Shown piece by piece: positions 10,645 through 24,911 of a stretch of DNA of 64,000 nt. The notes beneath the pieces were generated by a model that did not search any database, was not told where the DNA came from, and worked only from the letters and a program-made list of their open reading frames with translations. A program made the translations under genes and the position numbers. The stretch is from Fontivita pretiosa (GTDB lineage: Bacteria; Planctomycetota; Phycisphaerae; Tepidisphaerales; Tepidisphaeraceae), in assembly GCF_050410795.1 (NCBI RefSeq), contig NZ_CP191258.1, positions 1,443,118 through 1,507,117 of the forward strand. Reading direction: 5' to 3'. Positions within the stretch are counted from its first letter, which is position 1; every line of letters begins with the position of its first letter.

Positions 10645-11115
10645 TCACCGCGCCGTGGCAAACCCGATCTTCTTGAACTCCGCGGTCATCGCGGCCTGGT
10701 AGACCTCCACCAGATGCTCGTACTTCACCGACCGCGAGGGGCTGATGATGATCTGAACCTTGTCCGGCCCCTTGCCGGCGCGCCCGAACTGATCGCGCAT
10801 GCGCGCCAGCCCGGCGGCCAGGGCGTCCTGACTGCCGGTCTGAATCTGTCCCACCCGCGCGATGTAACCATCGCGTGTTGCGTTCTGATCCACGCGGATC
10901 TCCAGCGGCTCATCGGTGGGAAATCCGCCCGGCGGAGGCTGCACCGCCCCGCCGCCGGTTTCGCGCAGCGGCAGATTGCTGACCAGATACCACTCGGTGC
11001 CGGCGAACGTGCCGGTCATCATCAGGAAGATCAGCAGGACCATCACGACGTCCACCAGCGGCGTCATGTTCGGCCCCGAGTCGTAGTGAACTTTTTTCGC
11101 GCCCTGAATCTTCAT
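10645..11115 (-). CDS. exbD: ExbD/TolR biopolymer transport protein
   Basis: N-terminal TPLVDVVMVLLIFLM single-TM motif; 156 aa. Confidence 0.85.
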   Translation of the reverse strand: MKIQGAKKVHYDSGPNMTPLVDVVMVLLIFLMMTGTFAGTEWYLVSNLPLRETGGGAVQPPPGGFPTDEPLEIRVDQNATRDGYIARVGQIQTGSQDALAAGLARMRDQFGRAGKGPDKVQIIISPSRSVKYEHLVEVYQAAMTAEFKKIGFATAR

Positions 11116-11189
11116 CTTTTCATGTCACCAGCCTCTGGCCCAAGCCCGGCTCGCGCACGAGTGCGACACCCGTGAAACGCAGCCGCGAA

Positions 11190-11750
11190 TCAACGCGTCT
11201 TGCGCACTGTGCTGAAGTTGACGTTGCGGACATTGGCCTCCATACACGCCCGCAGGACCGGCTCCAGGCTGCCGTAGGTCAATCCCGCGCGGCGAGGCTC
11301 GCGGTCCTCCAACCCCTTGTCGCCCCGGATGATGACGCTGAGATGCTCGTTGTCGGCGTTCTCGTCGCTGCCGCCGGGGCGACCGTCCCGTCCGAAGCGC
11401 AGTCGCCGCAGCACCTCCGTCAGCGGCCGCCGGCCCGTCAGCGGGTCCACCACCTTCAGCTCCACCGGCCTGCCTGTCCTGCTCACCGATCCATCGGCCT
11501 CCACCAGCGCCGTGACGAACGGCTGGCCGGCCACCTCGCGCACGTTCAGCACGATCGAGCTGCCCGCGCCGATGTCCTTGATCTCCTTGCCCAGTGCGCT
11601 GGCCGGCAGCTCGATGTCCTGCTCGGCGCCGGTCGTCACCCCGATCTTGGCCACCAGCATGAAGAAGATGATCAGGCACATCACGATGTCGATCAGCGGC
11701 GTGACGTTGACGTTGCCTTCCTTGATGTCGGGCATGCGACGAATTCGCAT
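11190..11750 (-). CDS. exbD: ExbD/TolR biopolymer transport protein (second copy)
   Basis: TPLIDIVMCLIIFFM motif; GGAGG RBS 8 nt upstream of the ATG. Confidence 0.85.
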   Translation of the reverse strand: MRIRRMPDIKEGNVNVTPLIDIVMCLIIFFMLVAKIGVTTGAEQDIELPASALGKEIKDIGAGSSIVLNVREVAGQPFVTALVEADGSVSRTGRPVELKVVDPLTGRRPLTEVLRRLRFGRDGRPGGSDENADNEHLSVIIRGDKGLEDREPRRAGLTYGSLEPVLRACMEANVRNVNFSTVRKTR

Positions 11751-11778
11751 CGCGCACCTCCGTCGTCAGTCGCTTCTG

Positions 11779-12711
11779 TCATGGTTGCGGAGAGATGCTG
11801 GGCTTGGCCCGGCCCATCGCCGGTGGAGGCGGAGCCACCGGCTGGGGAATCCCGATGTTCGGCTGCGGCGCGGCGCGCATCCCAGCCGGGATCGTCGGCG
11901 AAGGCACGGCGGGCCTGGCCTCGGCGGGCTTGATCATCAAAAGCAGCTCCTCGGCCACCAGCGCGCCGCGGATCGTCAGCCGGTCCACCATCGTCCGCAG
12001 AACGCCGAACGCCGCCAGACATGGCACCGCCAGAAACAACCCCAGAAACGTGTGCGCCAGCGCCTTGCTGATGCCGTGCGCAAGCTGAGCCGGATTGGCA
12101 TTGCCTCCCGCCGCGTGCATCTCGCTGAACGCGTCGATCATCCCAAGCACCGTCCCCAGCAGCCCCAGCAGCGGCCCGAGGTTCCCGATGATGTTCAGGT
12201 ACTCGATCTTGCGGAACTGCTCGGCGGTCTGCTCGCCAATGGCGGTTTCCATCGCCTCCTTCATCGCGCTGAAGGATGGGGCCCGCTTCAGGGCCGGGTT
12301 CAGGGCCTTGCTGATGAAGCTGGGGTCCTGCTCGGTGAACTCGATCAGCTCGCGAAAGCGACGCTGCGCGATCATCTCCCGGATCAGGTTGGTGGTCTGC
12401 GGGGGCATGAACACGGCGGCGCGGTTCTTGATGAAGCCCTGGATGATCAGCGTCAGACCGGTCACCGACAGAAGGATGATAATGAAGAAGACAAAGTCGA
12501 TGTTCTGGAGGATCAGTGCCGCAAGCCCGACCTTCTGTGCCGCCGGTGTTGCGCCGGGCGTCGCGGAAGGCGCCGCTGCCGAAGGCACAGCCCCGCCGGG
12601 CGCGGGCGAGTCCTGTGCGTGGCTGCCGCTGGTGCTGAGCAACACCCCCGCCGCCAGCAGCATCCCCGCCAGCAGAATCAATCTGAGCTTCGATGTCGCA
12701 TATCGCCGCAT
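11779..12711 (-). CDS. exbB: MotA/TolQ/ExbB proton-channel protein
   Basis: C-terminal GPLLGLLGTVLGMIDAF motif. Start moved to ATG (MRRYATSK) with an AAGGA RBS; the tool start is an alternative GTG. N-terminal signal plus an Ala/Pro-rich extension. Confidence 0.85.
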   Translation of the reverse strand: MRRYATSKLRLILLAGMLLAAGVLLSTSGSHAQDSPAPGGAVPSAAAPSATPGATPAAQKVGLAALILQNIDFVFFIIILLSVTGLTLIIQGFIKNRAAVFMPPQTTNLIREMIAQRRFRELIEFTEQDPSFISKALNPALKRAPSFSAMKEAMETAIGEQTAEQFRKIEYLNIIGNLGPLLGLLGTVLGMIDAFSEMHAAGGNANPAQLAHGISKALAHTFLGLFLAVPCLAAFGVLRTMVDRLTIRGALVAEELLLMIKPAEARPAVPSPTIPAGMRAAPQPNIGIPQPVAPPPPAMGRAKPSISPQP

Positions 12712-12725
12712 GTCACATCCTTCTT

Positions 12726-13832
12726 CTACAAATCCTGCCGATCGATGATCCTGCACACCCCTCCGTTCTCCGAAGCAATGGTGCGGACGACCTTTTCCAG
12801 CTCCGGGCTGTGGGTGCTGCGGATCAGGATCACGTTCACCCGCACCTTGCGGTCCGCATTCAGCCTGCGGAATTCGTTGATCACGGCGTCGAAGCTCACG
12901 ACTGCTTCGAAACCGTCGGTCAGCACGTAAATCAGCTCCGGCTGCTGTTGAAACGCCAGGCGGATCGCTGGCAGCGGATCCGTCGATCCGGCGCTGGTCA
13001 TCTTCTGCGACAGCTCGAAGGCCCGGCGTTTCTGCTCGGGATTGGCCATCACCAGCCGGTCTTTGCTCAGCGCGATCACGTCCACATCAGAGAAGAAAAT
13101 GACGTTGAAGGCCTGGATCGGCTTCAAGACTTCCACGGCCTTTCGCAGCTCGTCCTGTACGCGTGGGAACACGCCCCACATGGAGCCGGAGGCATCGCAG
13201 ATATAGACGACTTTTCGGGCGTTGCCGGAGATGCCCATGAACGGGGACTTTGGCCCCAGCCCCTGTCCGCCGCCGGGCACGCCGAACGGCGCCATCGGCC
13301 CGCCGCCTTCTCCGCCGGCGCCGCCGCTTCCCTGGGGTCCTGAGCCGGCGATGCCGCTGCGCAGCCCCAGGCCGATCACCGAATCCGCCGCGTCCGGCGC
13401 CGCCCCGGCCATCAGCGTACTGGTCAGCGATTCGCTGCGTTTCTGCGCCCAGCCGTCGGCGGCGGTGATGTGCGGGTCCACGTCCTGTGCCGCCGACAGG
13501 TTCGGATCGCCTCCCAGCCCCGGATTGGGCAATCCACCCACGTCGGCGTTCTCCACAATCGCCGCCTCGGGGATGATCACCTGCTCGCGCGTGGGGCTGA
13601 CCATCTGCGGCACTGTCTTCAGCAGCGCATAGCCAATGATCAGCAGCGACAGGTGAAACACGATCGACGTCGCCAGCGGCAGCAGATTCTGCACCGTCGG
13701 GTTGCGCAGGAAGCTGACGTGCACCAGCGGGGCAGGAGGATTTTGTCCTGCGGCCGGCGGCGGCCCGTCGGCAGCGGAGAGCTGCGCCTCGGGAAAGCGG
13801 GCCGCTTCGGACATCGGCTGCTGGATCGACAT
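12726..13832 (-). CDS. von Willebrand factor A (vWA) domain membrane protein
   Basis: vWA MIDAS-like VVYICDASGSM, with a TM helix and Gly-rich linker; start chosen at MSIQQPM with an AGGAAG RBS. Confidence 0.75.
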   Translation of the reverse strand: MSIQQPMSEAARFPEAQLSAADGPPPAAGQNPPAPLVHVSFLRNPTVQNLLPLATSIVFHLSLLIIGYALLKTVPQMVSPTREQVIIPEAAIVENADVGGLPNPGLGGDPNLSAAQDVDPHITAADGWAQKRSESLTSTLMAGAAPDAADSVIGLGLRSGIAGSGPQGSGGAGGEGGGPMAPFGVPGGGQGLGPKSPFMGISGNARKVVYICDASGSMWGVFPRVQDELRKAVEVLKPIQAFNVIFFSDVDVIALSKDRLVMANPEQKRRAFELSQKMTSAGSTDPLPAIRLAFQQQPELIYVLTDGFEAVVSFDAVINEFRRLNADRKVRVNVILIRSTHSPELEKVVRTIASENGGVCRIIDRQDL

Positions 13833-14100
13833 CGCGACGACTTCCTGGAACGTTTGCGGTTTCCGCGATTCGTGCGTGCTTTGCGTCTGCACGACCCCGC
13901 CGCAGGCTCCCACGCGCCCGAGCATTCACCAGCAGGAATGACCCGCACGGCCCGGGCGGAAACCTTGCCTGCGGTCCGGATCCATTCGACGTACCGTGCT
14001 CACCTTCCCGCCGTGCATTCTAAGCACAGCTTTGGGCAGGAAAAGCGGACTGTTCGGCTTTTTTTCGCGAATCGCGGCAACGGTATAATACTTTTGCCCG

Positions 14101-14742
14101 ATGCTGCTCAAACGTATTGCCATCGTTGTGTCGCTGGTGCTGGCCGGGGGCGTGGCGCTGCTGTGGGGCCGCAGCTACGCCGTCGGCGACCGCTACCGAT
14201 GGGTACGCATTCAGGATGCGCCCTCGGGGCGATTCGTGATGAGCAGCGGGGGCTTCGCCACCGGGATCGGCGGCATCCGGTTCGTCTACGAAGCCGTGGA
14301 CAGCACCGACCCCAATGTAATCGATCGGACCCGACGACGGCTGGACGGGATCAGCCGCTGGGCGCCGCCAGGATACCGCACCATCGACCCGCCTCGTTAC
14401 CCGATGCGCGAGGCGAGCAACGATTCGGTCCTGGCGTCGCTGGGGTTTCATTTCGATCACTGGAGCAACAGTTCGCCGACCAGCCGCCAACGACAATTGA
14501 CTGTCACGGTGCCGTTCTGGGCCATCTTCCTGGCGCTGATCGGCTACCCCCTGGGGCGATACGTGGCGGGGGTGGTGCGGCGTCAAAGGGAGGATCGCCT
14601 GGCGTTGGGACTGTGCCCACGATGCGGCGTGCCGTTGAACGATGCCTTGTCGCGATGTCCCGGATGCGATCGCCCGATTCCACGTCCCAACACGACCGAA
14701 AACGCATTGAGCTCCGCCAGCGAAGCTCGCTCGGCGGTGTGA
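14101..14742 (+). CDS. Hypothetical membrane protein with C-terminal zinc ribbon
   Basis: Two hydrophobic segments and CPRCG...CPGCD near the C-terminus. Confidence 0.5.
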   Translation: MLLKRIAIVVSLVLAGGVALLWGRSYAVGDRYRWVRIQDAPSGRFVMSSGGFATGIGGIRFVYEAVDSTDPNVIDRTRRRLDGISRWAPPGYRTIDPPRYPMREASNDSVLASLGFHFDHWSNSSPTSRQRQLTVTVPFWAIFLALIGYPLGRYVAGVVRRQREDRLALGLCPRCGVPLNDALSRCPGCDRPIPRPNTTENALSSASEARSAV

Positions 14743-14761
14743 GCCGCGTGGCTACCAGTCA

Positions 14762-15104
14762 TTGCCGACACCGGATCGAATGCTGCTGATCGTCGCGATT
14801 CTCATCGCCGCAACCGTTCCGGCCGTGTGGGCGACCGGCCGAATCCTGAGCATCGATCATGCCCCGCCGCTGCTGCGACGCCTGGCCGGCTGGTTCGTGC
14901 CCTGGGGGGCATGCGTGTGGCTGGCCTGGTCGCTGATGTGGCAGGCGAACCTTCCCCGGCTGGACTGGAACGCCTGCCGACTGGCGCCGGTTGTGGGCAT
15001 GCTGTACGGCTACAGGCTGTACAACGTCCCGGAGCAGGGTCCGATCAGCACACACATCTATGGCCCGGTGTGGGCGCTGGCAATGCTGCCGGCGGCGAAC
15101 GTTT
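14762..15104 (+). pseudogene. N-terminal fragment of a polytopic membrane protein, truncated at the left edge of the tandem array
   Basis: Hydrophobic N-terminal ~115 codons. The reading frame then runs out of frame through repeat-derived sequence (R/D/E-rich, junk-like). Confidence 0.35.
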
Positions 15105-15380
15105 CCCGATGTCGTGATCGCCGGGCAGAGCATGATCGAAATCAAGCGAGTACAATCGCTGCAACTGACCGACCAGTTCAGAGCACAGATCCAGGCGGCG
15201 AAAGAGCATGGATTGAACTATCGGATCATCGTTTCGGATACCCTGGTTGGAGATCCGCATCCAGACCTTACGGGTCTGATGACGGATCTGCTCTTGAACC
15301 GGGCCAACGGAAAGACCGCGAGCATCGAAAAGTACGACAGCATTCAGAGGAAGCTGGTGAAGATATGGCCCTTGGAATAG
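15093..15380 (+). pseudogene. 5'-truncated copy (copy 1) of the 157-aa PD-(D/E)xK-like gene
   Basis: Homology to copies 2 and 3 begins at ...gcggcgaacgtttcccgatg. It retains RRTFPDVVIAGQSMIEIK...PLE but lacks the N-terminal ~60 codons. Confidence 0.5.
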
Positions 15381-16438
15381 GCATGGCATACCTGAGTTTT
15401 GTTGCTGAAGAGATGCTATCAGACGACGCGCTCGTTCAGCTCACGCTCGACTTTGCGGCGCGATTCCCACGCCTGGCTCCCCAGGAGATCGGGTTGAAGC
15501 CGGAAGCGGTCAGATTCGATTCCGCCAGGCTCAAATCGGTGCTGACCCCGGAGCGACTGGAGTTCGGTTGGAGTTGGAGACGAAGTAGACCTGACATAGA
15601 AGGTCGCAGATCGCGCGACCCCCGTGATGGGGACGAGAATGAGTACCTCTCCATCGACTTGGATCATGTCGAGCAGCAGGAACTGCTCGAGGTGGCCGAG
15701 TGGTATGCCCAGCGGGTGCGACTGGCATACGCTCACATCCATGTCCTGTCCGAGCCGGAGGCGCAGCATGCGGCCGCGCGAGGTTTGGCCTTCCTGGGAA
15801 TATCGCCTCAGGCTCACAAAGATCCACAGGCATGGAGCTACTACCCGCGGAATCTGAATCAGCTCTGCAACGGCATTCCCGACCTGTGCTGGGTGACGGT
15901 CTTCGGGCCGATGTACGTCCGTCACTTTGGTCGCGAGCGGCTGCTGTCGGCCCCGGCGCCGGTCGTGCGCGAGATCGCGACGGATACCATCCTGCTGCAA
16001 CTGAGCCACAGCTACACTGAGGTCGCCACGGACTGGGAGAAGTTCAATGCCACGCGCGAGGCGGTCATCGACCATCTCGGCCGCGAGTGCTTCAACCGCA
16101 GTGCACGCCCAGCGATCCCCCACCCAGCGGACAGCTGCGACGCACGGCTCGTGGATGTGGATCCGCGTTTCATCCCGCGGGAGTTGATGCCCCGGCGACA
16201 GAAGTTTCTCGCCGCCGCCTCGACTCCGCCCGAAGCCCTGCCCCCGCCGCTGACTAGCCTTGAGGAAATGCTCGCGCACGTTGGCCGACTGAAGGTGATA
16301 ACGATCATGGGTTCGCGCGTCCTGATCGATAAGGAGCGAAAGGAGCTGATCGGGTTCGCCGATCCGAAACTGGCCGAGGAATGGATCGACAAGCTCATCG
16401 CCGCCGGGGTGGAGGCGCAGGGGACGAGTCAACGGTGA
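15365..16438 (+). CDS. 357-aa hypothetical protein, cassette copy 1 (candidate immunity/partner)
   Basis: Near-identical to 16915..17988. Contains a local -1/+1 compensated frameshift (FNRSARPAIPHPADSC vs FNRVRTPSDPPPSGQR) relative to copies 2 and 3. Confidence 0.6.
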   Translation: MALGIGMAYLSFVAEEMLSDDALVQLTLDFAARFPRLAPQEIGLKPEAVRFDSARLKSVLTPERLEFGWSWRRSRPDIEGRRSRDPRDGDENEYLSIDLDHVEQQELLEVAEWYAQRVRLAYAHIHVLSEPEAQHAAARGLAFLGISPQAHKDPQAWSYYPRNLNQLCNGIPDLCWVTVFGPMYVRHFGRERLLSAPAPVVREIATDTILLQLSHSYTEVATDWEKFNATREAVIDHLGRECFNRSARPAIPHPADSCDARLVDVDPRFIPRELMPRRQKFLAAASTPPEALPPPLTSLEEMLAHVGRLKVITIMGSRVLIDKERKELIGFADPKLAEEWIDKLIAAGVEAQGTSQR

Positions 16439-16456
16439 CGACGTCGCTGGACTGCC

Positions 16457-16930
16457 GTGCGAGTCCGTTGGGCGCCACCCGGCCGCCTTCTGGCTGCCAA
16501 GCGGGCGGCCCAAATGATCCAGAACGCGGCCGCGGGGATGAAGTTCCAGAATGAGATGCGACTGCTTTTGCGGGAGGTGGAGCAACTGGACGTGCCGGCG
16601 AAAAAGCGATTCTTCGACGTGGTCCTCGCTACGGGCAGGGCGCGGCGAACGTTTCCCGATGTCGTGATCGCCGGGCAGAGCATGATCGAAATCAAGCGAG
16701 TACAATCGCTGCAACTGACCGACCAGTTCAGAGCACAGATCCAGGCGGCGAAAGAGCATGGATTGAATTATCGGATCATCGTTTCGGATACCCTGGTTGG
16801 AGATCCGGATCCACGCCTTACGCGTCTGATGACGGATCTGCTCTTGAACCGGGCCAACGGAAAGACCGCGAGCATCGAAAAGTACGACAGCATTCAGAGG
16901 AAGCTGGTGAAGATATGGCCCTTGGAATAG
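16457..16930 (+). CDS. 157-aa PD-(D/E)xK nuclease-fold-like small protein, cassette copy 2 (candidate toxin)
   Basis: FFDVVL...FPDVVIAG-x5-IEIK resembles an Hjc/YraN-type PD-(D/E)xK signature; overlaps the downstream gene by 16 nt. The true start may be an internal ATG (MIQNAAAG or MKFQNE). Confidence 0.55.
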   Translation: MRVRWAPPGRLLAAKRAAQMIQNAAAGMKFQNEMRLLLREVEQLDVPAKKRFFDVVLATGRARRTFPDVVIAGQSMIEIKRVQSLQLTDQFRAQIQAAKEHGLNYRIIVSDTLVGDPDPRLTRLMTDLLLNRANGKTASIEKYDSIQRKLVKIWPLE

Positions 16931-17988
16931 GCATGGCATACCTGAGTTTTGTTGCTGAAGAGATGCTATCAGACGACGCGCTCGTTCAGCTCACGCTCGA
17001 CTTTGCGGCGCGATTCCCACGCCTGGCTCCCCAGGAGATCGGGTTGAAGCCGGAAGCGGTCAGATTCGATTCCGCCAGGCTCAAATCGGTGCTGACCCCG
17101 GAGCGACTGGAGTTCGGTTGGAGTTGGAGACGAAGTAGACCTGACATAGAAGGTCGCAGATCGCGCGACCCCCGTGATGGGGACGAGAATGAGTACCTCT
17201 CCATCGACTTGGATCATGTCGAGCAGCAGGAACTGCTCGAGGTGGCCGAGTGGTATGCCCAGCGGGTGCGACTGGCATACGCTCACATCCATGTCCTGTC
17301 CGAGCCGGAGGCGCAGCATGCGGCCGCGCGAGGTTTGGCCTTCCTGGGAATATCGCCTCAGGCTCACAAAGATCCCCAGGCATGGAGCTACTACCCGCGG
17401 AATCTGAATCAGCTCTGCAACGGCATTCCCGACCTGTGCTGGGTGACGGTCTTCGGGCCGATGTACGTCCGTCACTTTGGTCGCGAGCGGCTGCTGTCGG
17501 CCCCGGCGCCGGTCGTGCGCGAGATCGCGACGGATACCATCCTGCTGCAACTGAGCCACAGCTACACTGAGGTCGCCACGGACTGGGAGAAGTTCAATGC
17601 CACGCGCGAGGCGGTCATCGACCATCTCGGCCGCGAGTGCTTCAACCGCGTGCGCACGCCCAGCGATCCCCCACCCAGCGGACAGCGCGACGCACGGCTC
17701 GTGGATGTGGATCCGCGTTTCATCCCGCGGGAGTTGATGCCCCGGCGACAGAAGTTTCTCGCCGCCGCCTCGACTCCGCCCGAAGCCCTGCCCCCGCCGC
17801 TGACTAGCCTTGAGGAAATGCTCGCGCACGTTGGCCGACTGAAGGTGATAACGATCATGGGTTCGCGCGTCCTGATCGATAAGGAGCGAAAGGAGCTGAT
17901 CGGGTTCGCCGATCCGAAACTGGCCGAGGAATGGATCGACAAGCTCATCGCCGCCGGGGTGGAGGCGCAGGGGACGAGTCAACGGTGA
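16915..17988 (+). CDS. 357-aa hypothetical protein, cassette copy 2
   Basis: Identical domain architecture to copies 1 and 3; protein-like composition, whereas the opposing 506-aa minus ORF is R/G/P-rich low complexity. Confidence 0.6.
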   Translation: MALGIGMAYLSFVAEEMLSDDALVQLTLDFAARFPRLAPQEIGLKPEAVRFDSARLKSVLTPERLEFGWSWRRSRPDIEGRRSRDPRDGDENEYLSIDLDHVEQQELLEVAEWYAQRVRLAYAHIHVLSEPEAQHAAARGLAFLGISPQAHKDPQAWSYYPRNLNQLCNGIPDLCWVTVFGPMYVRHFGRERLLSAPAPVVREIATDTILLQLSHSYTEVATDWEKFNATREAVIDHLGRECFNRVRTPSDPPPSGQRDARLVDVDPRFIPRELMPRRQKFLAAASTPPEALPPPLTSLEEMLAHVGRLKVITIMGSRVLIDKERKELIGFADPKLAEEWIDKLIAAGVEAQGTSQR

Positions 17989-18006
17989 CGACGTCGCTGG
18001 ACTGCC

Positions 18007-18480
18007 GTGCGAGTCCGTTGGGCGCCACCCGGCCGCCTTCTGGCTGCCAAGCGGGCGGCCCAAATGATCCAGAACGCGGCCGCGGGGATGAAGTTCCAGA
18101 ATGAGATGCGACTGCTTTTGCGGGAGGTGGAGCAACTGGACGTGCCGGCGAAAAAGCGATTCTTCGACGTGGTCCTCGCTACGGGCAGGGCGCGGCGAAC
18201 GTTTCCCGATGTCGTGATCGCCGGGCAGAGCATGATCGAAATCAAGCGAGTACAATCGCTGCAACTGACCGACCAGTTCAGAGCACAGATCCAGGCGGCG
18301 AAAGAGCATGGATTGAATTATCGGATCATCGTTTCGGATACCCTGGTTGGAGATCCGCATCCAGACCTTACGGGTCTGATGAGGGACCTGCTCTTGAACC
18401 GGGCCAACGGAAAGACCGCGAGCATCGAAAAGTACGACAGCATTCAGAGGAAGCTGGTGAAGATATGGCCCTTGGAATAG
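18007..18480 (+). CDS. 157-aa PD-(D/E)xK-like small protein, cassette copy 3
   Basis: Identical to copy 2 except the C-terminal DPHPDLTGLMRD segment. Confidence 0.55.
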   Translation: MRVRWAPPGRLLAAKRAAQMIQNAAAGMKFQNEMRLLLREVEQLDVPAKKRFFDVVLATGRARRTFPDVVIAGQSMIEIKRVQSLQLTDQFRAQIQAAKEHGLNYRIIVSDTLVGDPHPDLTGLMRDLLLNRANGKTASIEKYDSIQRKLVKIWPLE

Positions 18481-19538
18481 GCATGGCATACCTGAGTTTT
18501 GTTGCTGAAGAGATGCTATCAGACGACGCGCTCGTTCAGCTCACGCTCGACTTTGCGGCGCGATTCCCACGCCTGGCTCCCCAGGAGATCGGCCTGAAGC
18601 CCAACACGGTCAAAGTTGACCCCCGGACGCTCAAAGCGGCGCTGACACCGGAGCGGCTGGATGACGGCTGGCATTGGAGGCGACGTAAGCCTGACGTACG
18701 AGGATGCAGGTCACGCTTTCGCAGTGAGGGCGACGAGCATGAGTACCTCTCCATCGACTTGGATCATGTCGAGCAGCAGGAACTGCTCGAGGTGGCCGAG
18801 TGGTATGCCCAGCGGGTGCGACTGGCATACGCTCACATCCATGTCCTGTCCGAGCCGGAGGCGCAGCATGCGGCCGCGCGAGGTTTGGCCTTCCTGGGAA
18901 TATCGCCTCAGGCTCACAAAGATCCCCAGGCATGGAGCTACTACCCGCGGAATCTGAATGAGCTCTGCAACGGCATTCCCGACCTGTGCTGGGTGACGGT
19001 CTTCGGGCCGATGTACGTTCGGCACTTCGGTCGCGATCGGCTGCTGTCGGCCCCGGCGCCGGTCGTGCGCGAGATCGCGACGGATACCATCCTGCTGCAA
19101 CTGAGCCACAGCTACACTGAGGTCGCCACGGACTGGGAGAAGTTCAATGCCACGCGCGAGGCGGTCATCGACCATCTCGGCCGCGAGTGCTTCAACCGCG
19201 TGCGCACGCCCAGCGATCCCCCACCCAGCGGACAGCGCGACGCACGGCTCGTGGATGTGGATCCGCGTTTCATCCCGCGGGAGTTGATGCCCCGGCGACA
19301 GAAGTTTCTCGCCGCCGCCTCGACTCCGCCCGAAGCCCTGCCCCCGCCGCTGACTAGCCTTGAGGAAATGCTCGCGCACGTTGGCCGACTGAAGGTGATA
19401 ACGATCATGGGTTCGCGCGTCCTGATCGATAAGGAGCGAAAGGAGATGATCGGTTTTGCCGATCCGAAACTGGCCGAGGAATGGATCGACAAGCTCATCG
19501 CCGCAGGCGTGGAGGCGCAGGGGACGAGTCAACGGTGA
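18465..19538 (+). CDS. 357-aa hypothetical protein, cassette copy 3 (mosaic variant)
   Basis: ~99% identical to copy 2, except a ~160-bp patch (codons ~45-95) that is strongly divergent at both synonymous and non-synonymous sites. Confidence 0.6.
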   Translation: MALGIGMAYLSFVAEEMLSDDALVQLTLDFAARFPRLAPQEIGLKPNTVKVDPRTLKAALTPERLDDGWHWRRRKPDVRGCRSRFRSEGDEHEYLSIDLDHVEQQELLEVAEWYAQRVRLAYAHIHVLSEPEAQHAAARGLAFLGISPQAHKDPQAWSYYPRNLNELCNGIPDLCWVTVFGPMYVRHFGRDRLLSAPAPVVREIATDTILLQLSHSYTEVATDWEKFNATREAVIDHLGRECFNRVRTPSDPPPSGQRDARLVDVDPRFIPRELMPRRQKFLAAASTPPEALPPPLTSLEEMLAHVGRLKVITIMGSRVLIDKERKEMIGFADPKLAEEWIDKLIAAGVEAQGTSQR

Positions 19539-19687
19539 CGCGGTGCAAGGGCAAAGCCGCTGCGGTGCAGGAGATGAGAGTTCCGTGCGACCGAGGCCCT
19601 CGCCGGCTGGCTCATCGTGCGACGTTGCAGCAGAACCATCTGCTGATTCTGCCCTCTGCCCTCATCCCTCTGCCCTCATCCTTGTAT

Positions 19688-20737
19688 TCACTGCGTCGGA
19701 TCCACCCGATGCGTGATGCTTCCCGGCGGCGGACAGACGAATTCCCTGATCGGCCGCGGCTCGAGCTTCGCCGGGTCGATCACCACATGCCCGATCGTCC
19801 GCCGCTTGAACGTGTAGGCGATGTGCACCAGTCCGTCGGCCGTCTGGATCACGCACGGATACGAGTATTGTCCGGGCGGCTCGTCCTGGATGATCGCGGC
19901 GGCTTGCCAGGTTCTTCCGTCGCGCGAGATCGCCACGTTCAGCGGATACCGCACCTTCTCCAGATTCGAGTGGTTGTAGACCAGCAGGTGCGTCCCGTCG
20001 CGCAGCGTCGTCGCGTCGATCCCGGAGTTGCAGTTGGGCAGGTCGGTCAGCGCCAGCGGCGACCACGTCGCCCCGCCGTCGCGCGACCAGGTCTCGCAGA
20101 TCCGCCCCACCGTCGTCCGCCCCAGCGCCTGAAGAACCGTCTGCGAATGGATCAGGATCGTCGGCTGCGTTGCCTTGGGGATGATCGAGCGGTCCTGCTC
20201 GACCCAGGGCATCGCCGACCACGTGTTGCCGTTGTCTGTGCTGCACTCAAAATACAGGCGCCAACCGGATTCCGATTCAACGCTCGTCGGGACCAGGATC
20301 ATGCTGCTCTCAAGCTGCACCGGCTTGTTCTTCGCCGGGCCGATGAGGTTTGGCCCGACGCGCCGGGCGGCGCTCCACGTGTGCCCTTCGTCGCCGGATC
20401 GTTTGAGCATGCCCCACCACTTCGACGGCGACGGCCCGACCTTGTAGAACAGCAGCATCGGGCCATTGCGGGGCTTGAACAGCACCGGGTTCCAGCAGGG
20501 ATAGCGCGAGCCATCCGGCTCGATTCCCTCGGCGGTCAGCACCGGCGCCGACCATCGCCCGTCGCGCAGGTGGCAGGTCCAGATCGACGCATCGGGCTTG
20601 CCCTCGCCGCTGCCACCAAAAAACGCCGCCACGACATGCCCGGGCGCCGGCTCGCATAGCGTCGCCGCATGACACGACGGAAACGGCGCCGTGCCGATCT
20701 CGTAGATGAACCCGCTGTGGATGATGCCTGCTTTCAT
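19688..20737 (-). CDS. BNR/Asp-box repeat sialidase-like (GH33-like) beta-propeller protein
   Basis: Four Asp-box motifs SxDxGxTW (SGDEGHTW, STDNGNTW, SRDGGATW, SRDGRTW); start at MKAGII. Confidence 0.8.
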   Translation of the reverse strand: MKAGIIHSGFIYEIGTAPFPSCHAATLCEPAPGHVVAAFFGGSGEGKPDASIWTCHLRDGRWSAPVLTAEGIEPDGSRYPCWNPVLFKPRNGPMLLFYKVGPSPSKWWGMLKRSGDEGHTWSAARRVGPNLIGPAKNKPVQLESSMILVPTSVESESGWRLYFECSTDNGNTWSAMPWVEQDRSIIPKATQPTILIHSQTVLQALGRTTVGRICETWSRDGGATWSPLALTDLPNCNSGIDATTLRDGTHLLVYNHSNLEKVRYPLNVAISRDGRTWQAAAIIQDEPPGQYSYPCVIQTADGLVHIAYTFKRRTIGHVVIDPAKLEPRPIREFVCPPPGSITHRVDPTQ

Positions 20738-20787
20738 TGCTGAACAAACTTCGCACACCCTCTGCGCAATATCGTCAAGACACGCAA

Positions 20788-22518
20788 TCAGCCCTGCTTC
20801 GCTATCGTGCTGAGCGTATCCACGTTGTTGTTCAGGTCCTTCCAGTCCACCTTCTTCGTGGGATCGATGTTATGGATGAACTTCTCGATGTTGGTGTAGC
20901 CGTCGCCGTTGAGGTCGCCGCTGGCGTCGGAGGCGTCGTTGGGGTTCAATCCGTACTTTGTCTCCCACTCATCGGGCATGCCGTCGCTGTCGCTGTCCTT
21001 GTACGGCGTGCCCTGGTATTGCGGATAACCTCCGACGTCGCGCGGATCGGTGATGATGCCCTTCTCGACCAGAGCGGCGATTCGCTGGATCACCTCATCG
21101 CGATAGCCGACCTTGCTCAGCTCCTCGGCCAGGTTCATGCTCGGCTTGGCGCTGACCCGGCCGCTGCGCACCATCTCGACGACGCGCTGATCGACCGCAT
21201 CGCGCCTGGGCAGCGTGGCGCCGGCGTTGGCGAGCACTTTTTCGAACGCTTCGGCGGCGGTGTCGATCGGCGGCGCCGGGGGCATGGGCAGCGGCTGTTT
21301 GGCGCGCGCTTTGGGCAAATTGGCCTGGGCGCGCCGGGCGGCCTCGGGGTCGCGGGCGGCGTCGTCCTCGTCCATGTGCTGCACGCCGCCGGCCCAGTTG
21401 TCCGCCGTCACCTTCTCGTTGCCTTCGACGATGTTGCCTTCAACGTAGAAGTTGGGCCTCACCTCGCGATCCGTCCGCTCCAGCCCCTCGCGCTGCACGA
21501 TGCGGTAGCCGACGGCCTGGTCCTTGGGCGTGGCCGGGCCGGGCTTGTAGTAGCAGTTGATCACGTTGACGGTGTTTCCCCCGCCAGCCCCATCCATCGT
21601 CCGGTGCCGCCAGTTGAACAACACGTTGTTGACCCAGTTGAAGTCGCCGGTCATGCCGATGCTGGGATTTCGTCCTGTATTGCAGGCATAGAGATTGTGG
21701 TGGAACAGCGTATTCCGCCCGCCCAGCGTGCTGCCGAACGCGTGATTGTAGGTGTTCAATCCCTCGCTGGAGATCGACCACTGGATGGTGAGGTTGACGG
21801 TGGGCAGCTTCTGTGCCCGCCCGCCGTCGGGCGGCTGATACATGTGCCGGTACATCGACATGTTCTCATCCAGTCCCCAGCTCGCCGACACGTGATCGAT
21901 GATCACGTTGCCGACGGGATTTCCGCCCAGCGAGTCGTTGCGATCGCCGACCCAGGTGTTTCCGCGGCGGAAGCGCATGTGGCGGATGACCACATCGTGG
22001 GTTTCGATTTCGACGGTGTCGCCGGCGATGCACACGCCGTCGCCCGGCGCCGTGTTGCCGGCGATGGTGATGTACGGCGCGCGGATGCGGATGCGGTCTT
22101 TCAATCGGATGATGCCGGCGACATTGAAGACGACGATGCGCGGCCCGCCGGCTTCCAGCGCTTCACGGAAGGTTCCGGGGCCGGAGTCTTCAAGGGATGT
22201 CACGACGTACACCTTTCCGCCGCGACCGCCAAAGCTGTACATCCCTCCGCCCCAGGCGCCGGGGAAGGCAGGGATGCTGGCCTGCGGCAGATCCTGCGGT
22301 CGCGCAGCCCAAGGAATATACGGCTTGCCTTTGGTTTCCCAGTCCTTGATGACCGGCAGCGCGCGGGCGAAGGCTTCGTCGCTGCGCTGGTCGGAGGCGG
22401 CGCGGCGCGCGTTGGCCTCGGCCTCGAGCTGTGGCGAAAGCGTCGGGTATTGTGCAAACGTTAAGCCGCCTGCAAAAAGCCATGTGGCCACAAGCGCGCA
22501 CAGGAACGATCTTGTCAT
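20788..22518 (-). CDS. Secreted pectate-lyase-fold (right-handed beta-helix) protein with C-terminal Ca-binding Asp-rich repeats
   Basis: Signal peptide; beta-helix NxxxN/WxDH-like stretches (IIDHVSASWGLDEN); C-terminal DSDGMPDEWE...DLNGDGYTN dockerin/TSP3-like Ca loops. Confidence 0.75.
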   Translation of the reverse strand: MTRSFLCALVATWLFAGGLTFAQYPTLSPQLEAEANARRAASDQRSDEAFARALPVIKDWETKGKPYIPWAARPQDLPQASIPAFPGAWGGGMYSFGGRGGKVYVVTSLEDSGPGTFREALEAGGPRIVVFNVAGIIRLKDRIRIRAPYITIAGNTAPGDGVCIAGDTVEIETHDVVIRHMRFRRGNTWVGDRNDSLGGNPVGNVIIDHVSASWGLDENMSMYRHMYQPPDGGRAQKLPTVNLTIQWSISSEGLNTYNHAFGSTLGGRNTLFHHNLYACNTGRNPSIGMTGDFNWVNNVLFNWRHRTMDGAGGGNTVNVINCYYKPGPATPKDQAVGYRIVQREGLERTDREVRPNFYVEGNIVEGNEKVTADNWAGGVQHMDEDDAARDPEAARRAQANLPKARAKQPLPMPPAPPIDTAAEAFEKVLANAGATLPRRDAVDQRVVEMVRSGRVSAKPSMNLAEELSKVGYRDEVIQRIAALVEKGIITDPRDVGGYPQYQGTPYKDSDSDGMPDEWETKYGLNPNDASDASGDLNGDGYTNIEKFIHNIDPTKKVDWKDLNNNVDTLSTIAKQG

Positions 22519-22705
22519 GCCCTCAAACTCCTGTTGCTGATGGAGCCAGTCTGCGTTCCCGACGGCTGCGCGTCAAATCTCCGCCGCGGCGGCACAGTCG
22601 CACGAGTCCTGTGCAGAAACACGCCACTCTGTGACACGGGCGTCTCGCCGGTGCGGGCGATCAGACCATGTGCGGGATGCCCGTGAAAAAAAAGGCGCGA
22701 AGTGG

Positions 22706-22749
22706 AAGAAAAACGTCGCGGGCGTCCTGGTGAGCGGGACGTCCGCGAC
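22706..22749 (-). terminator. Rho-independent terminator downstream of fusA
   Basis: 13-bp GC-rich inverted repeat GTCGCGGACGTCC/GGACGCCCGCGAC (1 mismatch), 9-nt loop, followed by GUUUUUCUUCC on the minus-strand transcript. Confidence 0.5.
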
Positions 22750-22775
22750 AGTTGCTCTGCGGTGCCGCGATCGGC

Positions 22776-24911
22776 TCATCCAACTTCCTGGAGAATGGCA
22801 TTCTTGACCTGAGCCGGAACCGGAGCGTACTTCAGCGGCTCCATGACGCTGGTGGCGCGGCCCTGGGTCATGCTGCGCAGCTCGGTGGTGTAGCCGAACA
22901 TCTCGCTCAGCGGCACTTCGGCCTCGATGATCCGCACGTTGCCACGCTTTTCGGAGTTGACGATGACCCCACGGCGGCGGTTCAGGTCGCCGGTGACATT
23001 GCCGACGAACTCTTCGGGTGTGGTGACGACGACCCTCATGATCGGCTCCAGCAGGGTCAGCCCCGCCTTCATGGCCGCCTCGCGAAGGGCAAGCTGTCCG
23101 GCCAGCTCGAAGGCGATCTGCGAGCTATCGACCGGATGGTAGCTGCCGTCCACAAGTGAGACCTTGATGTTGATCAGGGGGTAGCTGGCCAGCACGCCGG
23201 TCTTGGCGGCCATTCGCACGCCGTACTCCACGGAGGGGATGAACTCCTTGGGGATCGCCCCGCCGAAGATCTTGTTTTCGAACGCCACCCCATCGCGCCA
23301 GTTCCATTTCTTGAGGGTTTCCGGATCCACGCCGGTGCCGTCGAACGGCTCGATGTTGATCACCACGTCGCCGTACTGGCCACGTCCGCCGGTCTGCTTG
23401 ACGTGCTTGCCGCGGACGTTGGTCGCCACGCCGGTGATCGTCTCCTTGTACGCGACCTTGGGCTTGCCCACCAGCACATCCACCTTCATGTCGCGCACGA
23501 GCTTGTTGCGGAGGATTTCCAGGTGCAACTCGCCCATGCCTGCGATGATCGTCTGCCCGGTCTCCTCGTCGTAGTTGGCCTGGAAGGTCGGGTCCTCGCG
23601 CTTCAGGATCGTCAGGGCCTCGCCGAGCTTCTGCTTGTCGGCGGCGGTCTTGGGCTCGATGGACATGCTGATGACCGGCTCGGGGAAAGTGGGCCGTTCG
23701 AGGATGATCGGGTGGTCCGGGTCGCACAGCGTGTCGCCGGTGAGCGCGTCTTTGACGCCGATACACGCGACGATATCGCCGGCCTCGGCAACGTCGATGG
23801 GGATGCGATCCGCCGCGTGCATCTGGAACATTCGCGAGATATTCTCCTTCTTGCCGCGGTTGGCGTTGAGCACACGGCTGCCCTTTTCCAGCCGCCCGGA
23901 GTAGACCCGCACGTAAGTCAGATCGCCGTGCTGGTCACTGACGATTTTGAATACCAGCCCGCAGAACGGCTCATCGGGCGAAGGCTTTCGCTCGATGATC
24001 TTGTCCGGATCCTTCACGTCATGTCCCTTGACCGGGGGCAGGTCCAGGGGCGACGGCAGGTAATCGATCACGCCATCCAGCAGGCGCTGGATGCCGACGT
24101 AGCGCAGCGCCGAGCCACAGAACACGGGATGAACCTTGAAGGCGATCGTGCCCTTTCGCAGGGCCGCGCGAATCTCCTGTTCGGTGATCGTGTTCGGATC
24201 GGTCAGGTACTTGTCGGTCAGATGGTCATCCAGCTCCGCGACCTTTTCCAGCAGCAGATGCCGCCAGTGTTCGTATCGCTCGCGCTCTTCCTCGGGGATG
24301 GGTTTTTCGATCTGCGTGCGGCCCTTGTCCTTCTCGTCGGCGACGTTGTAGTAGATCGCCACGCCGCGGATCAGGTCGATGATGCCCTTGAAGGTGTTGC
24401 TCTGTCCGATGGGCAGTTGCACGGCAACGGCCGGGGCGCCCAGGCGTTCAACGATGCTGTTGAAGCTGAAGTCAAAGTCGGCGCCCAGCTTGTCCATTTT
24501 GTTGATGAAGCAGATGCGCGGCACGTTGTACTTGGTCGCCTGCCGCCAGACGGTTTCGGACTGCGCCTCGACGCCTTCTTTTCCATCGAAGACGGCGATA
24601 GCGCCGTCGAGCACGCGAAGCGACCGCTCGACTTCAACGGTGAAGTCCACGTGACCGGGAGTGTCGATCAGGTTGATGGTGTATCGCTCGCCGTTGCGGT
24701 CCCAGGGGCAGGTGGTGGCGGCGGACTGGATGGTGATGCCGCGCTTCTGCTCTTCTTCCAGGAAGTCCATGACGGCGGTGCCTTCGTGGACCTCGCCCAT
24801 CTTGTGGATCTTCCCGGTGTAATAAAGGATGCGCTCCGAGACGGTGGTTTTGCCCGCGTCGATGTGGGCGCAAATGCCAATGTTGCGAATTTTGGTCAGA
24901 TCGCGTGCCAT
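22776..24911 (-). CDS. fusA: Elongation factor G
   Basis: [10 protein letters not shown]1, DTPGHVDF G3 and NKMD G4 motifs; full EF-G domains II-V. ATG (MARDLTK) chosen over the alternative GTG start; not adjacent to rpsL/rpsG/tuf. Confidence 0.95.

What the first reader, a model, noticed from the sequence alone, without database searches (positions are those of the whole stretch)
18590..18752. Localised hyper-divergent ~160-bp patch in copy 3 of the 357-aa gene, against ~99% identical flanks
Copy 3 codons ~45-95 read KPNTVKVDPRTLKAALTPERLDDGWHWRRRKPDVRGCRSRFRSEGDEHEY. Copies 1 and 2 read KPEAVRFDSARLKSVLTPERLEFGWSWRRSRPDIEGRRSRDPRDGDENEY. Many synonymous changes differ too (ggg/ggc, ttg/ctg, cga/cgg, acc/aca). 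The copy-1/2 version uses GC-poor, otherwise rare codons (aga, ata, agt) for this genome. Everything on both sides is essentially identical. This mosaic pattern indicates gene conversion or recombination with a diverged allele, or a diversifying surface segment, rather than gradual drift. If the pair is toxin/immunity, this would be a candidate specificity-determining loop. The matching small-gene copies also differ only in one short segment (DPHPDLTGLM vs DPDPRLTRLM).
Basis: seen in the sequence. Interest (0 to 1): 0.6.

Follow-up and report, generated by a model that had tools for sequence, protein, structure and literature searches.

The report
Mosaic immunity gene in toxin array
The divergent 146-bp patch is real: it is an old, exchangeable allele segment in the third copy of an immunity gene within a decayed bacterial toxin/immunity gene array, put there by recombination rather than local mutation, which is a familiar kind of evolution in such competition loci.

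Summary
Window 15092-19540 is a 2.87-unit tandem array with a 1550-bp unit, in Fontivita pretiosa (Planctomycetota). Copy 3 of the 357-aa gene differs from copies 1/2 at 44 of 146 bases (18593-18738). Only 10 differences fall in the other 925 bases.

The patch has dS 0.65 against 0.03 in the flanks, so it is an old allele, not fresh mutation. A metagenome allele (L011) carries the same type-B segment at 98% identity inside otherwise different variable segments. Other contigs (L005/L006/L008/L012) carry the copy-1/2 type-A segment at 99-100%. All four combinations of patch type and a second variable segment exist, which requires recombination.

The patch covers ordered helices and a beta-hairpin. 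A specificity role is untested, and the same toxin type precedes both patch types. This is a new member of a known kind, of modest interest.

The parts
15092..19540 (+). Tandem array of 2.87 units of 1550 bp. Each unit holds a toxin C-terminal (CT) cassette and an immunity gene.
   Evidence: Exact 1550-bp register. Copies 1 and 2 are identical apart from 6 substitutions and one 37-bp frameshifted stretch. Copies 2 and 3 differ at 60 of 1349 positions.
18593..18738 (+). The finding itself: the type-B allele of hypervariable segment HV1 in immunity copy 3 (codons 43-92).
   Evidence: It has 44 mismatches in 146 bp against copies 1/2, with dS 0.65 and dN 0.30. It is 98% identical to L011 and 83% to L001. 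In the model it is ordered: helices 56-59 and 62-67, strands 68-73, 78-85 and 90-98.
17043..17188 (+). Type-A allele of HV1 in immunity copy 2. The identical segment in copy 1 is at 15493-15638.
   Evidence: It is 100% identical to L005/L006 and 99% to L008/L012. GC3 is 0.62.
18465..19538 (+). Immunity gene copy 3. It is 357 aa from the ATG at 18465. NCBI annotates 351 aa from the ATG at 18483.
16915..17988 (+). Immunity gene copy 2 (HV1 type A).
15365..16438 (+). Immunity gene copy 1 (HV1 type A). It carries a compensated frameshift at 16100-16136.
18007..18480 (+). Orphan Tox-REase-7 toxin CT cassette, copy 3. NCBI annotates a 138-aa 'putative toxin' from the ATG at 18064.
   Evidence: Pfam PF15649 scores 28.1 bits against a cutoff of 25. 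It matches P0007. It is homologous to the last ~150 aa of the 1071-aa and 1098-aa toxins of L001 and L012.
16457..16930 (+). Orphan Tox-REase-7 toxin CT cassette, copy 2. Its variable segment reads DPDPRLTRLM (16808-16823).
15092..15380 (+). 5'-truncated toxin CT cassette, copy 1. Only the last 95 codons remain, with no start codon.
   Evidence: Repeat homology begins at 15092 and the sequence upstream is unrelated.
16441..16641 (+). Inter-unit segment, repeated at 17991-18191. It holds the scar of a 3173-bp deletion at 16486/16487, which removed the toxin gene's 5' region and about 925 N-terminal codons.
   Evidence: Window 16231-16487 matches L012 1-257 at 98.4%, and window 16487-17295 matches L012 3431-4236. 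The junction sequences were compared. L005 has the same junction.
18097..18099 (+). CAG (Gln31) codon replacing the conserved Glu of the Tox-REase-7 GxxxE motif. The same change is at 16547-16549 in copy 2.
   Evidence: Alignment A4: the position is E in L012, L001, L010, L015 and L016, and also in L008/L009. The motif definition is from PMC3482391.
18885..18964 (+). Second variable segment (HV2) of the immunity gene. All three window copies carry the alpha type.
   Evidence: L005/L006/L011 carry a beta type that is 79-82% identical to the window copies.
14762..15091 (+). Remnant of a membrane-protein-like ORF (110 N-terminal codons), cut off by the left edge of the array.
   Evidence: The related contig L014 shares only the first 39 codons and breaks at window 14877.

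Best explanation
**The locus.** It is a decayed polymorphic-toxin locus of Fontivita pretiosa. Each 1550-bp unit holds an orphan C-terminal cassette of a PD-(D/E)xK nuclease toxin (Tox-REase-7). Directly after it comes its immunity gene, a 357-aa protein with the Imm52/DUF3396 immunity fold plus a C-terminal extension.

**How the unit arose.** In relatives the same cassette is the C-terminus of a 1071-1098-aa secreted toxin. In this genome a 3173-bp deletion removed the delivery part. The deleted unit was then duplicated in tandem, and the first cassette was truncated further.

**The immunity gene is mosaic.** A near-uniform backbone is interrupted by at least three variable segments: 'pre' (aa 7-40), HV1 (aa 43-92) and HV2 (aa 141-167). 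Each exists as old, discrete allele types.

**The patch.** The flagged patch is HV1 type B in copy 3. Copies 1 and 2 carry HV1 type A. Homologous recombination, meaning gene conversion between tandem units and exchange between strains, keeps homogenising the backbone and reshuffles the variable segments. That is why a roughly 30%-divergent tract sits in 99%-identical flanks.

**Shown.** The array anatomy, the deletion, the mosaic structure and recombination, the fold, and the conserved toxin-immunity gene order.

**Inferred.**
- The 357-aa protein neutralises the nuclease.
- HV1 lies on the toxin-facing sheet surface.
- Keeping both A and B types broadens protection against toxin variants fired by related strains, so the array now works mainly as an immunity store.
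For: **Patch statistics.** Of 54 differences, 44 fall in 146 bp (P about 5e-29). dS is 0.65 in the patch and 0.031 outside it. In every allele pair, HV1 has a higher dS and a 2-4-fold higher dN/dS than the backbone.

**HV1 is an exchangeable segment.**
- L011 carries type B at 98% identity. Its 'pre' segment is only 79% identical and its HV2 80%.
- L005/L006 carry type A at 100% identity but HV2 type beta.
- Together these give all four HV1 x HV2 combinations (alignment).
- Copy-3 patch bases are mostly shared with L001/L002/L003.

**Toxin identity.**
- The window cassette scores 28.1 bits for PF15649.
- The toxins upstream of distant family members in L015 (with PT-HINT) and L016 score 52 and 51 bits.
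- Full-length toxins are present in L001 and L012.

**Immunity identity.**
- The model has pLDDT 92.9.
- The gene sits immediately downstream of the toxin in the window and in L001, L003/4, L005, L008, L009, L010, L012, L015 and L016.
- L002 keeps an intact immunity gene next to a toxin remnant.

**Deletion and array position.** The junction is at window 16487, matching L012 257/3431. A related strain has its array at the same chromosomal site, with both A' and B types (L011-L014).

**Variable residues in the hairpin.** Variable positions 70, 79, 81, (83) and 85 alternate with conserved W69, W71, G80, R82 and R84, as expected if one face of the sheet varies. In the same-fold TsiV3 the exposed sheet face binds the toxin (PMC9635880).
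Against: - No experiment shows toxicity or neutralisation.
- The immunity protein matches no Pfam or NCBIfam model, not even Imm52/DUF3396 at E <= 1.
- The toxin cassettes here lack a delivery domain and carry Gln in place of the GxxxE Glu. The toxin half may therefore be dead.
- The same toxin variable-region type (TEIDEELKELMRRELL) precedes both a type-B (L011) and a type-A' (L012) immunity gene. In the window, nearly identical toxin cassettes precede A and B. HV1 therefore does not co-vary one-to-one with the toxin's variable segment.
- dN/dS in the patch is 0.46, so positive selection is not demonstrated.
- Only about 8 close alleles exist in public data.
Confidence: 0.8

Rival explanations
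1. Neutral relic of concerted evolution. Copy 3 is simply an older paralogue. Intra-array gene conversion has homogenised everything except HV1, because a 30%-diverged tract blocks heteroduplex extension. No selection acts on the A/B difference, and both versions neutralise the same toxin.
For: The same toxin type precedes both A' and B immunity genes in the related strain, and near-identical cassettes precede A and B here. dN/dS in the patch is below 1. The backbone is 98-100% identical among the copies.
Against: Both types persist at 98-100% identity across at least two strains whose flanking chromosome is only 90.6-92% identical. HV1 dS exceeds backbone dS in every allele pair. Variable residues fall on alternating positions of the hairpin strands. 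These points suggest the types are maintained rather than leftover.
Confidence: 0.3
2. HV1 is the specificity determinant and co-evolves with the toxin's own variable segment (toxin aa ~112-135). Each immunity copy would then be tuned to the cassette directly upstream of it.
For: Both proteins have a localised hypervariable segment. By analogy, the exposed sheet of the same-fold TsiV3 contacts the toxin.
Against: Pairings do not co-vary. L008/L012 combine the toxin variable region TEIDEELKELMRRELL with HV1 type A', while L011 combines the same toxin variable region with HV1 type B. In the window, toxin 1' and toxin 3 differ by one residue, yet they precede A and B respectively.
Confidence: 0.2
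3. Local accelerated mutation of copy 3, through targeted hypermutation (a DGR-like retroelement) or positive selection on new point mutations.
For: The change is confined to a short tract and many differences are nonsynonymous (28 of 44).
Against: All 12 substitution types occur with no adenine bias. There are 16 synonymous differences, giving dS 0.65. The window holds no template copy of the patch. The very same tract occurs in L011 (98%) and a related one in L001 (83%).
Confidence: 0.02
4. Assembly or sequencing artefact in a near-identical tandem repeat.
For: Arrays of 1.5-kb units at 99% identity are hard to assemble. Copy 1 has a suspicious pair of indels.
Against: The patch keeps the reading frame and all family-invariant residues. 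Independent metagenome contigs reproduce the immunity-toxin-immunity junction (L005/L006). Independent contigs also reproduce both patch types (L011, L012, L008).
Confidence: 0.02

Closest known systems
Orphan cdiA-CT/cdiI and rhs-CT/rhsI modules of CDI and Rhs loci (Poole et al. 2011, PMC3150448)
   Same: Toxin gene fragments encoding only the C-terminal domain, each followed by its immunity gene and arranged in series. The same CT is fused to a full-length toxin in other strains. Modules are exchanged by recombination.
   Different: The carrier protein here is neither CdiA nor Rhs. The L001/L012 toxins show only fn3 and a weak dockerin-like signal. No full-length toxin remains in this window. 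The three modules are near-identical duplicates, not different toxins. The variation sits in short segments inside the immunity gene.
[quoted passage not shown] 2017, PMC5361080)
   Same: Effector genes are lost or displaced while immunity genes are retained in arrays. Homologous recombination produces mosaic clusters. The proposed benefit is protection from related strains.
   Different: No T6SS context was found here. The array arose by tandem duplication of one unit, not by successive acquisition of different modules.
Imm52/DUF3396 immunity proteins of PD-(D/E)xK effectors: TsiT (PA3908, 9oz0), PA0821 (7drg), TsiV1-4 (Hespanhol et al. 2022, PMC9635880)
   Different: Sequence identity is 9-11% and there is no hit to the Pfam models. 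The partner toxin is Tox-REase-7, not Tox-REase-5 or VRR-Nuc. There is an extra ~100-aa C-terminal domain (aa 270-352). The host is a planctomycete.
Tox-REase-7 polymorphic toxins (Zhang et al. 2012, PMC3482391)
   Same: The Pfam match is above threshold, and the PD and ExK motifs are present. Planctomycetes are listed among the hosts of this family.
   Different: That paper lists Imm-HEAT, Imm23 and Imm54 as its immunity partners, not an Imm52-fold protein. In this window the motif Glu is replaced by Gln.
Colicin E DNase / Im immunity pairs (own knowledge, not checked here)
   Same: Specificity classes differ in a short variable region on an otherwise conserved immunity scaffold. Recombination and diversifying selection have been invoked for them.
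   Different: The fold and toxin family are unrelated. A specificity role for HV1 is not shown here.

Membership tests
Polymorphic toxin system (Zhang et al. 2012) | The toxin domain forms the C-terminus of a large multidomain exported protein. | tested here: met
   Met in relatives only. The L001 protein (1071 aa) and the L012 protein (1098 aa) end in the same CT. In the window only CT cassettes remain, and the N-terminal region of the L001 toxin has no match in the 64-kb window.
Polymorphic toxin system (Zhang et al. 2012) | An immunity gene lies immediately downstream of the toxin CT, and standalone CT/immunity cassettes occur. | tested here: met
   The gene order is conserved in the window and in L001, L003-L005, L008-L010, L012, L015 and L016.
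Polymorphic toxin system (Zhang et al. 2012) | The CT is toxic and is specifically neutralised by the downstream protein. | not testable with these tools
   This needs expression assays.
Tox-REase-7 (PF15649) | The Pfam model scores above its gathering threshold. | tested here: met
   The window cassette scores 28.1 bits against a cutoff of 25. L012 scores 25.9, L015 52.4 and L016 50.9.
Tox-REase-7 (PF15649) | The conserved motifs GxxxE, IxD, ExK and Q are present (PMC3482391). | tested here: not met
   FPD (aa 66-68) and EIK (aa 78-80) are present. GxxxE reads GMKFQ in both complete window cassettes and in L005/L006, whereas seven other lineages have E.
Tox-REase-7 (PF15649) | The protein has the restriction-endonuclease (PD-(D/E)xK) fold. 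| tested here: inconclusive
Imm52 / DUF3396 immunity family | The sequence matches the Pfam Imm52 or DUF3396 models. | tested here: not met
   There is no Pfam hit at E <= 1 for the window protein, nor at E <= 0.01 for 10 family members. NCBIfam gives no hit either.
Imm52 / DUF3396 immunity family | The three-dimensional fold is shared. | tested here: met
Imm52 / DUF3396 immunity family | The gene is encoded next to a PD-(D/E)xK-superfamily toxin. | tested here: met
   The literature context is in PMC9635880.
Diversity-generating retroelement target | Differences are adenine-specific relative to a template repeat, and a reverse transcriptase is nearby. | tested here: not met
   The substitution spectrum is spread over all 12 types. 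The window holds no second copy of the patch apart from the array copies. A reverse transcriptase was not searched for.
Recombinant (mosaic) gene | Segments have incongruent relationships and the four-gamete condition is met. | tested here: met
   The HV1/HV2 combinations are A-alpha (copies 1, 2), B-alpha (copy 3), B-beta (L011) and A-beta (L005/L006).

The most novel reading that the evidence does not exclude
The three variable segments of this immunity gene ('pre', HV1, HV2) may act as interchangeable specificity cassettes. Gene conversion among tandem units and between strains would recombine them. A small array would then generate a combinatorial repertoire of immunity specificities against the Tox-REase-7 variants circulating in a Tepidisphaerales population. 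This would be an antigenic-variation-like logic applied to interbacterial defence, in a previously unannotated Imm52-fold family with about 1000 cluster representatives.
Probability: 0.15. Interest if true: 0.6.

Novelty: new member of a known kind. Interest (0 to 1): 0.35.

Why it matters
The finding turns two genes annotated 'hypothetical protein' and 'putative toxin' in a little-studied thermophilic planctomycete into a readable toxin/immunity locus.

- It links Tox-REase-7 toxins to an immunity family that has the Imm52/DUF3396 fold but no Pfam or NCBIfam model. A profile search found about 1000 cluster representatives of this family.
- It is a clean natural example of how such loci evolve: loss of the delivery domain by a single deletion, tandem amplification of the remnant, and segment-wise recombination that keeps old allele types inside a homogenised backbone.
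- It offers a defined pair of natural HV1 variants (A and B) on a near-identical scaffold. These could be used directly to map the specificity determinants of this immunity fold.

It does not reveal a new kind of mechanism.

Tried and rejected
- **Toxin-immunity complex.** I built an alignment of toxin-linker-immunity fusions (A3) to mimic a multimer prediction.
- **Surface exposure.** No model coordinates are exposed in /data, so surface exposure of the patch could not be computed.
- **Sequence search of solved structures.** Nothing significant was found for either protein.
- **Genome-contig scans.** The N-terminal 900 aa of the L001 toxin found nothing. The immunity protein itself also found nothing. 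The second result shows that this collection lacks Fontivita, so the first negative says nothing about a full-length toxin elsewhere in this genome.
- **Third word-indexed protein search.** Run with A2, it added only two usable distant members.
- **DGR or hypermutation.** Rejected on the substitution spectrum and the shared allele.
- **An inversion in copy 1 at 16100-16136.** The reverse-strand ORFs made this look possible. Direct comparison shows a -1/+1 frameshift pair instead.
- **Other copies in the window as conversion donors.** None exist.
- **tRNA, promoter and terminator scans around the array.** These were uninformative.

Full report
**1. The observation**

Window 15092-19540 is a head-to-tail array with a period of exactly 1550 bp and 2.87 units. 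Copies start at 15092, 16642 and 18192.

Each unit holds a small ORF and a 357-aa ORF.
- Small ORFs (157 aa from GTG): 16457-16930 and 18007-18480. NCBI aa from the ATG at 16514 and 18064.
- 357-aa ORFs: 15365-16438, 16915-17988 and 18465-19538.
- The first small ORF is cut at 15092 and abuts an unrelated membrane-like ORF that starts at 14762.

Copies 1 and 2 of the large gene are identical apart from one substitution and a 37-bp stretch. Copy 3 differs from copy 2 at 54 positions. Of these, 44 fall in gene nt 129-274, which is window 18593-18738. Identity there is 66-76% in 50-bp windows, against 92-100% elsewhere. The chance of such clustering is about 5e-29. The quoted peptides are correct, with 22 of 50 residues differing.

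**2. An old allele, not new mutation**

- In the patch, 16 differences are synonymous and 28 nonsynonymous (dS 0.65, dN 0.30). The rest of the gene has dS 0.031 and dN 0.004.
- All 12 substitution types occur, so there is no adenine bias of the DGR kind.
- The window holds no further copy that could have served as a donor.

**3. What the genes are**

*Organism.* The proteins match NCBI entries of Fontivita pretiosa, annotated 'hypothetical protein' and 'putative toxin'.

*The small protein.*
- It passes the Pfam Tox-REase-7 threshold, 28.1 bits against 25.
- In metagenome contigs L001 and L012 the same ~150 residues form the C-terminus of proteins of 1071 and 1098 aa.
- Window 16231-16487 matches L012 1-257, and window 16487 onward matches L012 3431 onward. 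The window unit is therefore the L012 unit minus 3173 bp: the toxin's 5' region and about 925 codons.
- L005 carries the same junction.

*The 357-aa protein.*
- It has no Pfam or NCBIfam match.
- A profile search of 1.8 billion representatives found 1018 relatives, mostly ~250 aa covering residues 1-245. These are also without Pfam matches.
- With that alignment, AlphaFold2 gives a confident model, pLDDT 92.9.
- These proteins are immunity proteins against PD-(D/E)xK effectors (PMC9635880).

*Gene order.*
- The gene follows the toxin directly in L001, L003/L004, L005, L008, L009, L010 and L012.
- The same holds for the distant relatives P0091 (L015, downstream of a PT-HINT + Tox-REase-7 toxin, 52 bits) and P0160 (L016, 51 bits).
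- L002 keeps an intact immunity gene behind a 25-codon toxin remnant.

I therefore read the unit as a toxin-CT cassette plus an immunity gene. This inference rests on family match, fold and conserved gene order. No functional test was made.

**4. What the patch is**

I aligned all close alleles segment by segment. The gene has a near-uniform backbone with discrete variable segments: 'pre' (gene nt ~19-117), HV1 (129-274, the patch) and HV2 (~421-500). There is also a variable proline-rich linker at ~840-900.

HV1 comes in types.
- Type A: copies 1 and 2; L005/L006 at 100% identity; L008/L012 at 99%.
- Type B: copy 3; L011 at 98% (4 nt and 2 aa differences); L001 is related at 83%.

L011 has a different 'pre' segment (79%) and a different HV2 (80%). 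Its HV2 matches that of L005/L006 at 95%.

The four HV1/HV2 combinations all exist: A-alpha (copies 1, 2), B-alpha (copy 3), B-beta (L011) and A-beta (L005/L006). This requires recombination between the segments.

At most sites in the first half of the patch, copy 3 shares its base with L001, L002 and L003. There type A is the outlier. In the second half, L002 sides with A. This fits the lower GC3 of the type-A tract (0.62).

HV1 has a higher dS than the backbone in every allele pair, and a dN/dS 2-4 times higher (0.22-0.90 against 0.04-0.34).

Contigs L011-L014 come from a strain whose flanking chromosome is 90.6-92% identical to the window. Its array lies at the same site and contains both a B and an A' immunity gene, plus a full-length toxin. 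The array units are 95-98% identical between the two strains, which is closer than the flanks.

The simplest account is as follows. A and B are old allele classes. Homologous recombination, within arrays and between strains, homogenises the backbone and reshuffles the variable segments.

**5. Where the patch sits in the protein**

Residues 43-92 are ordered (block pLDDT 88-95). They comprise short helices 56-59 and 62-67, a hairpin of strands 68-73 and 78-85, and the start of strand 90-98.

Within the hairpin, variable positions 70, 79, 81, (83) and 85 alternate with conserved W69, W71, G80, R82 and R84. This is as expected if one face of the sheet varies.

In TsiV3, which has the same fold, the exposed sheet face binds the toxin next to its active site (PMC9635880). 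That makes HV1 a reasonable candidate contact surface, but this is an analogy, not a result.

Evidence against a simple lock-and-key reading:
- The toxin's own variable segment (after the YRIIVSD strand) is of the same type (TEIDEELKELMRRELL) upstream of the type-B gene in L011 and upstream of the type-A' gene in L012.
- In the window, cassettes 1' and 3 differ by one residue, yet they precede A and B.

**6. State of the toxin half**

- The window cassettes lack any delivery region.
- The first cassette is truncated.
- Both complete cassettes, and those of L005/L006, read GMKFQ where the family motif is GxxxE. Glu is present in L001, L008, L009, L010, L012, L015 and L016.
- No full-length toxin lies in the 64-kb window. 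Whether one exists elsewhere in the genome could not be determined.

My best reading is that this locus now serves mainly as a store of immunity genes of two HV1 types. It would be comparable to orphan immunity arrays in other bacteria (PMC5361080) and to orphan CT/immunity modules of CDI/Rhs loci (PMC3150448).

**7. Verdict**

- The specificity role of the patch remains open.
- The system is a new member of a known kind: a polymorphic-toxin orphan-module array. The immunity family is unannotated at sequence level but has a known fold.
- Interest is modest.

Noticed in passing
window 16100-16136 (copy 1 of the 357-aa gene): A -1 frameshift with two substitutions is restored by a +1 insertion 36 nt later. 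As a result, 12 codons read NRSARPAIPHPADSCD instead of NRVRTPSDPPPSGQRD. All other alleles carry the copy-2/3 state. The stretch lies in the proline-rich linker between the Imm52-like domain and the C-terminal extension. It could be a real compensated frameshift or a pair of assembly errors.
   Followed up: partly
window 16547-16549 and 18097-18099: Both complete toxin cassettes have Gln (CAG) at the conserved Glu of the Tox-REase-7 GxxxE motif. Seven other lineages have Glu. The change co-occurs with the deletion that removed the delivery domain and is also present in L005/L006, which suggests an inactivated or attenuated toxin.
   Followed up: partly
L001 700-3915: The full-length 1071-aa toxin of this metagenome contig has ExM in place of the catalytic ExK (EIMRVQ) but keeps GxxxE. 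This is a second lineage with a substitution at a motif residue.
   Followed up: no
window 14762-15091; L014 3674-3976: A membrane-protein-like ORF is cut by the array's left edge at 15092. The related strain shares only its first 39 codons and breaks at window 14877, then continues into an immunity-gene fragment fused to a toxin fragment (also seen in L008). The left edge of the array has therefore been rearranged independently in the two strains.
   Followed up: partly
window 16808-16823 versus 15258-15273 and 18358-18373; also 18383 and 18387: The toxin cassettes have their own micro-patch. Copy 2 differs at 4 of 16 bases (DPDPRLTRLM), matching L005. Copy 3 has two further changes (T to R). 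This lies in the toxin's family-wide variable segment after the YRIIVSD strand.
   Followed up: partly
L011-L014 versus window 11027-23649: The array units are 95-98% identical between Fontivita and the related metagenome strain. The flanking chromosome is only 90.6-92% identical (95% over the last ~940 bp of L013). This hints at recent exchange of modules between strains.
   Followed up: no
immunity protein aa ~270-352 (window 19272-19520 in copy 3): A confidently modelled C-terminal extension domain (helix 272-286, strands 309-329, helix 334-346) is present in only about 10-25% of the wider family. Most members stop near residue 250. Its role is unknown.
   Followed up: no
L007 2044-2451; L010 348-1109: A 32%-identical family member (P0006) lies near an Imm1-family gene, consistent with a poly-immunity locus. 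Another toxin/immunity pair sits next to an IS200/IS605-type Y1 transposase gene.
   Followed up: no
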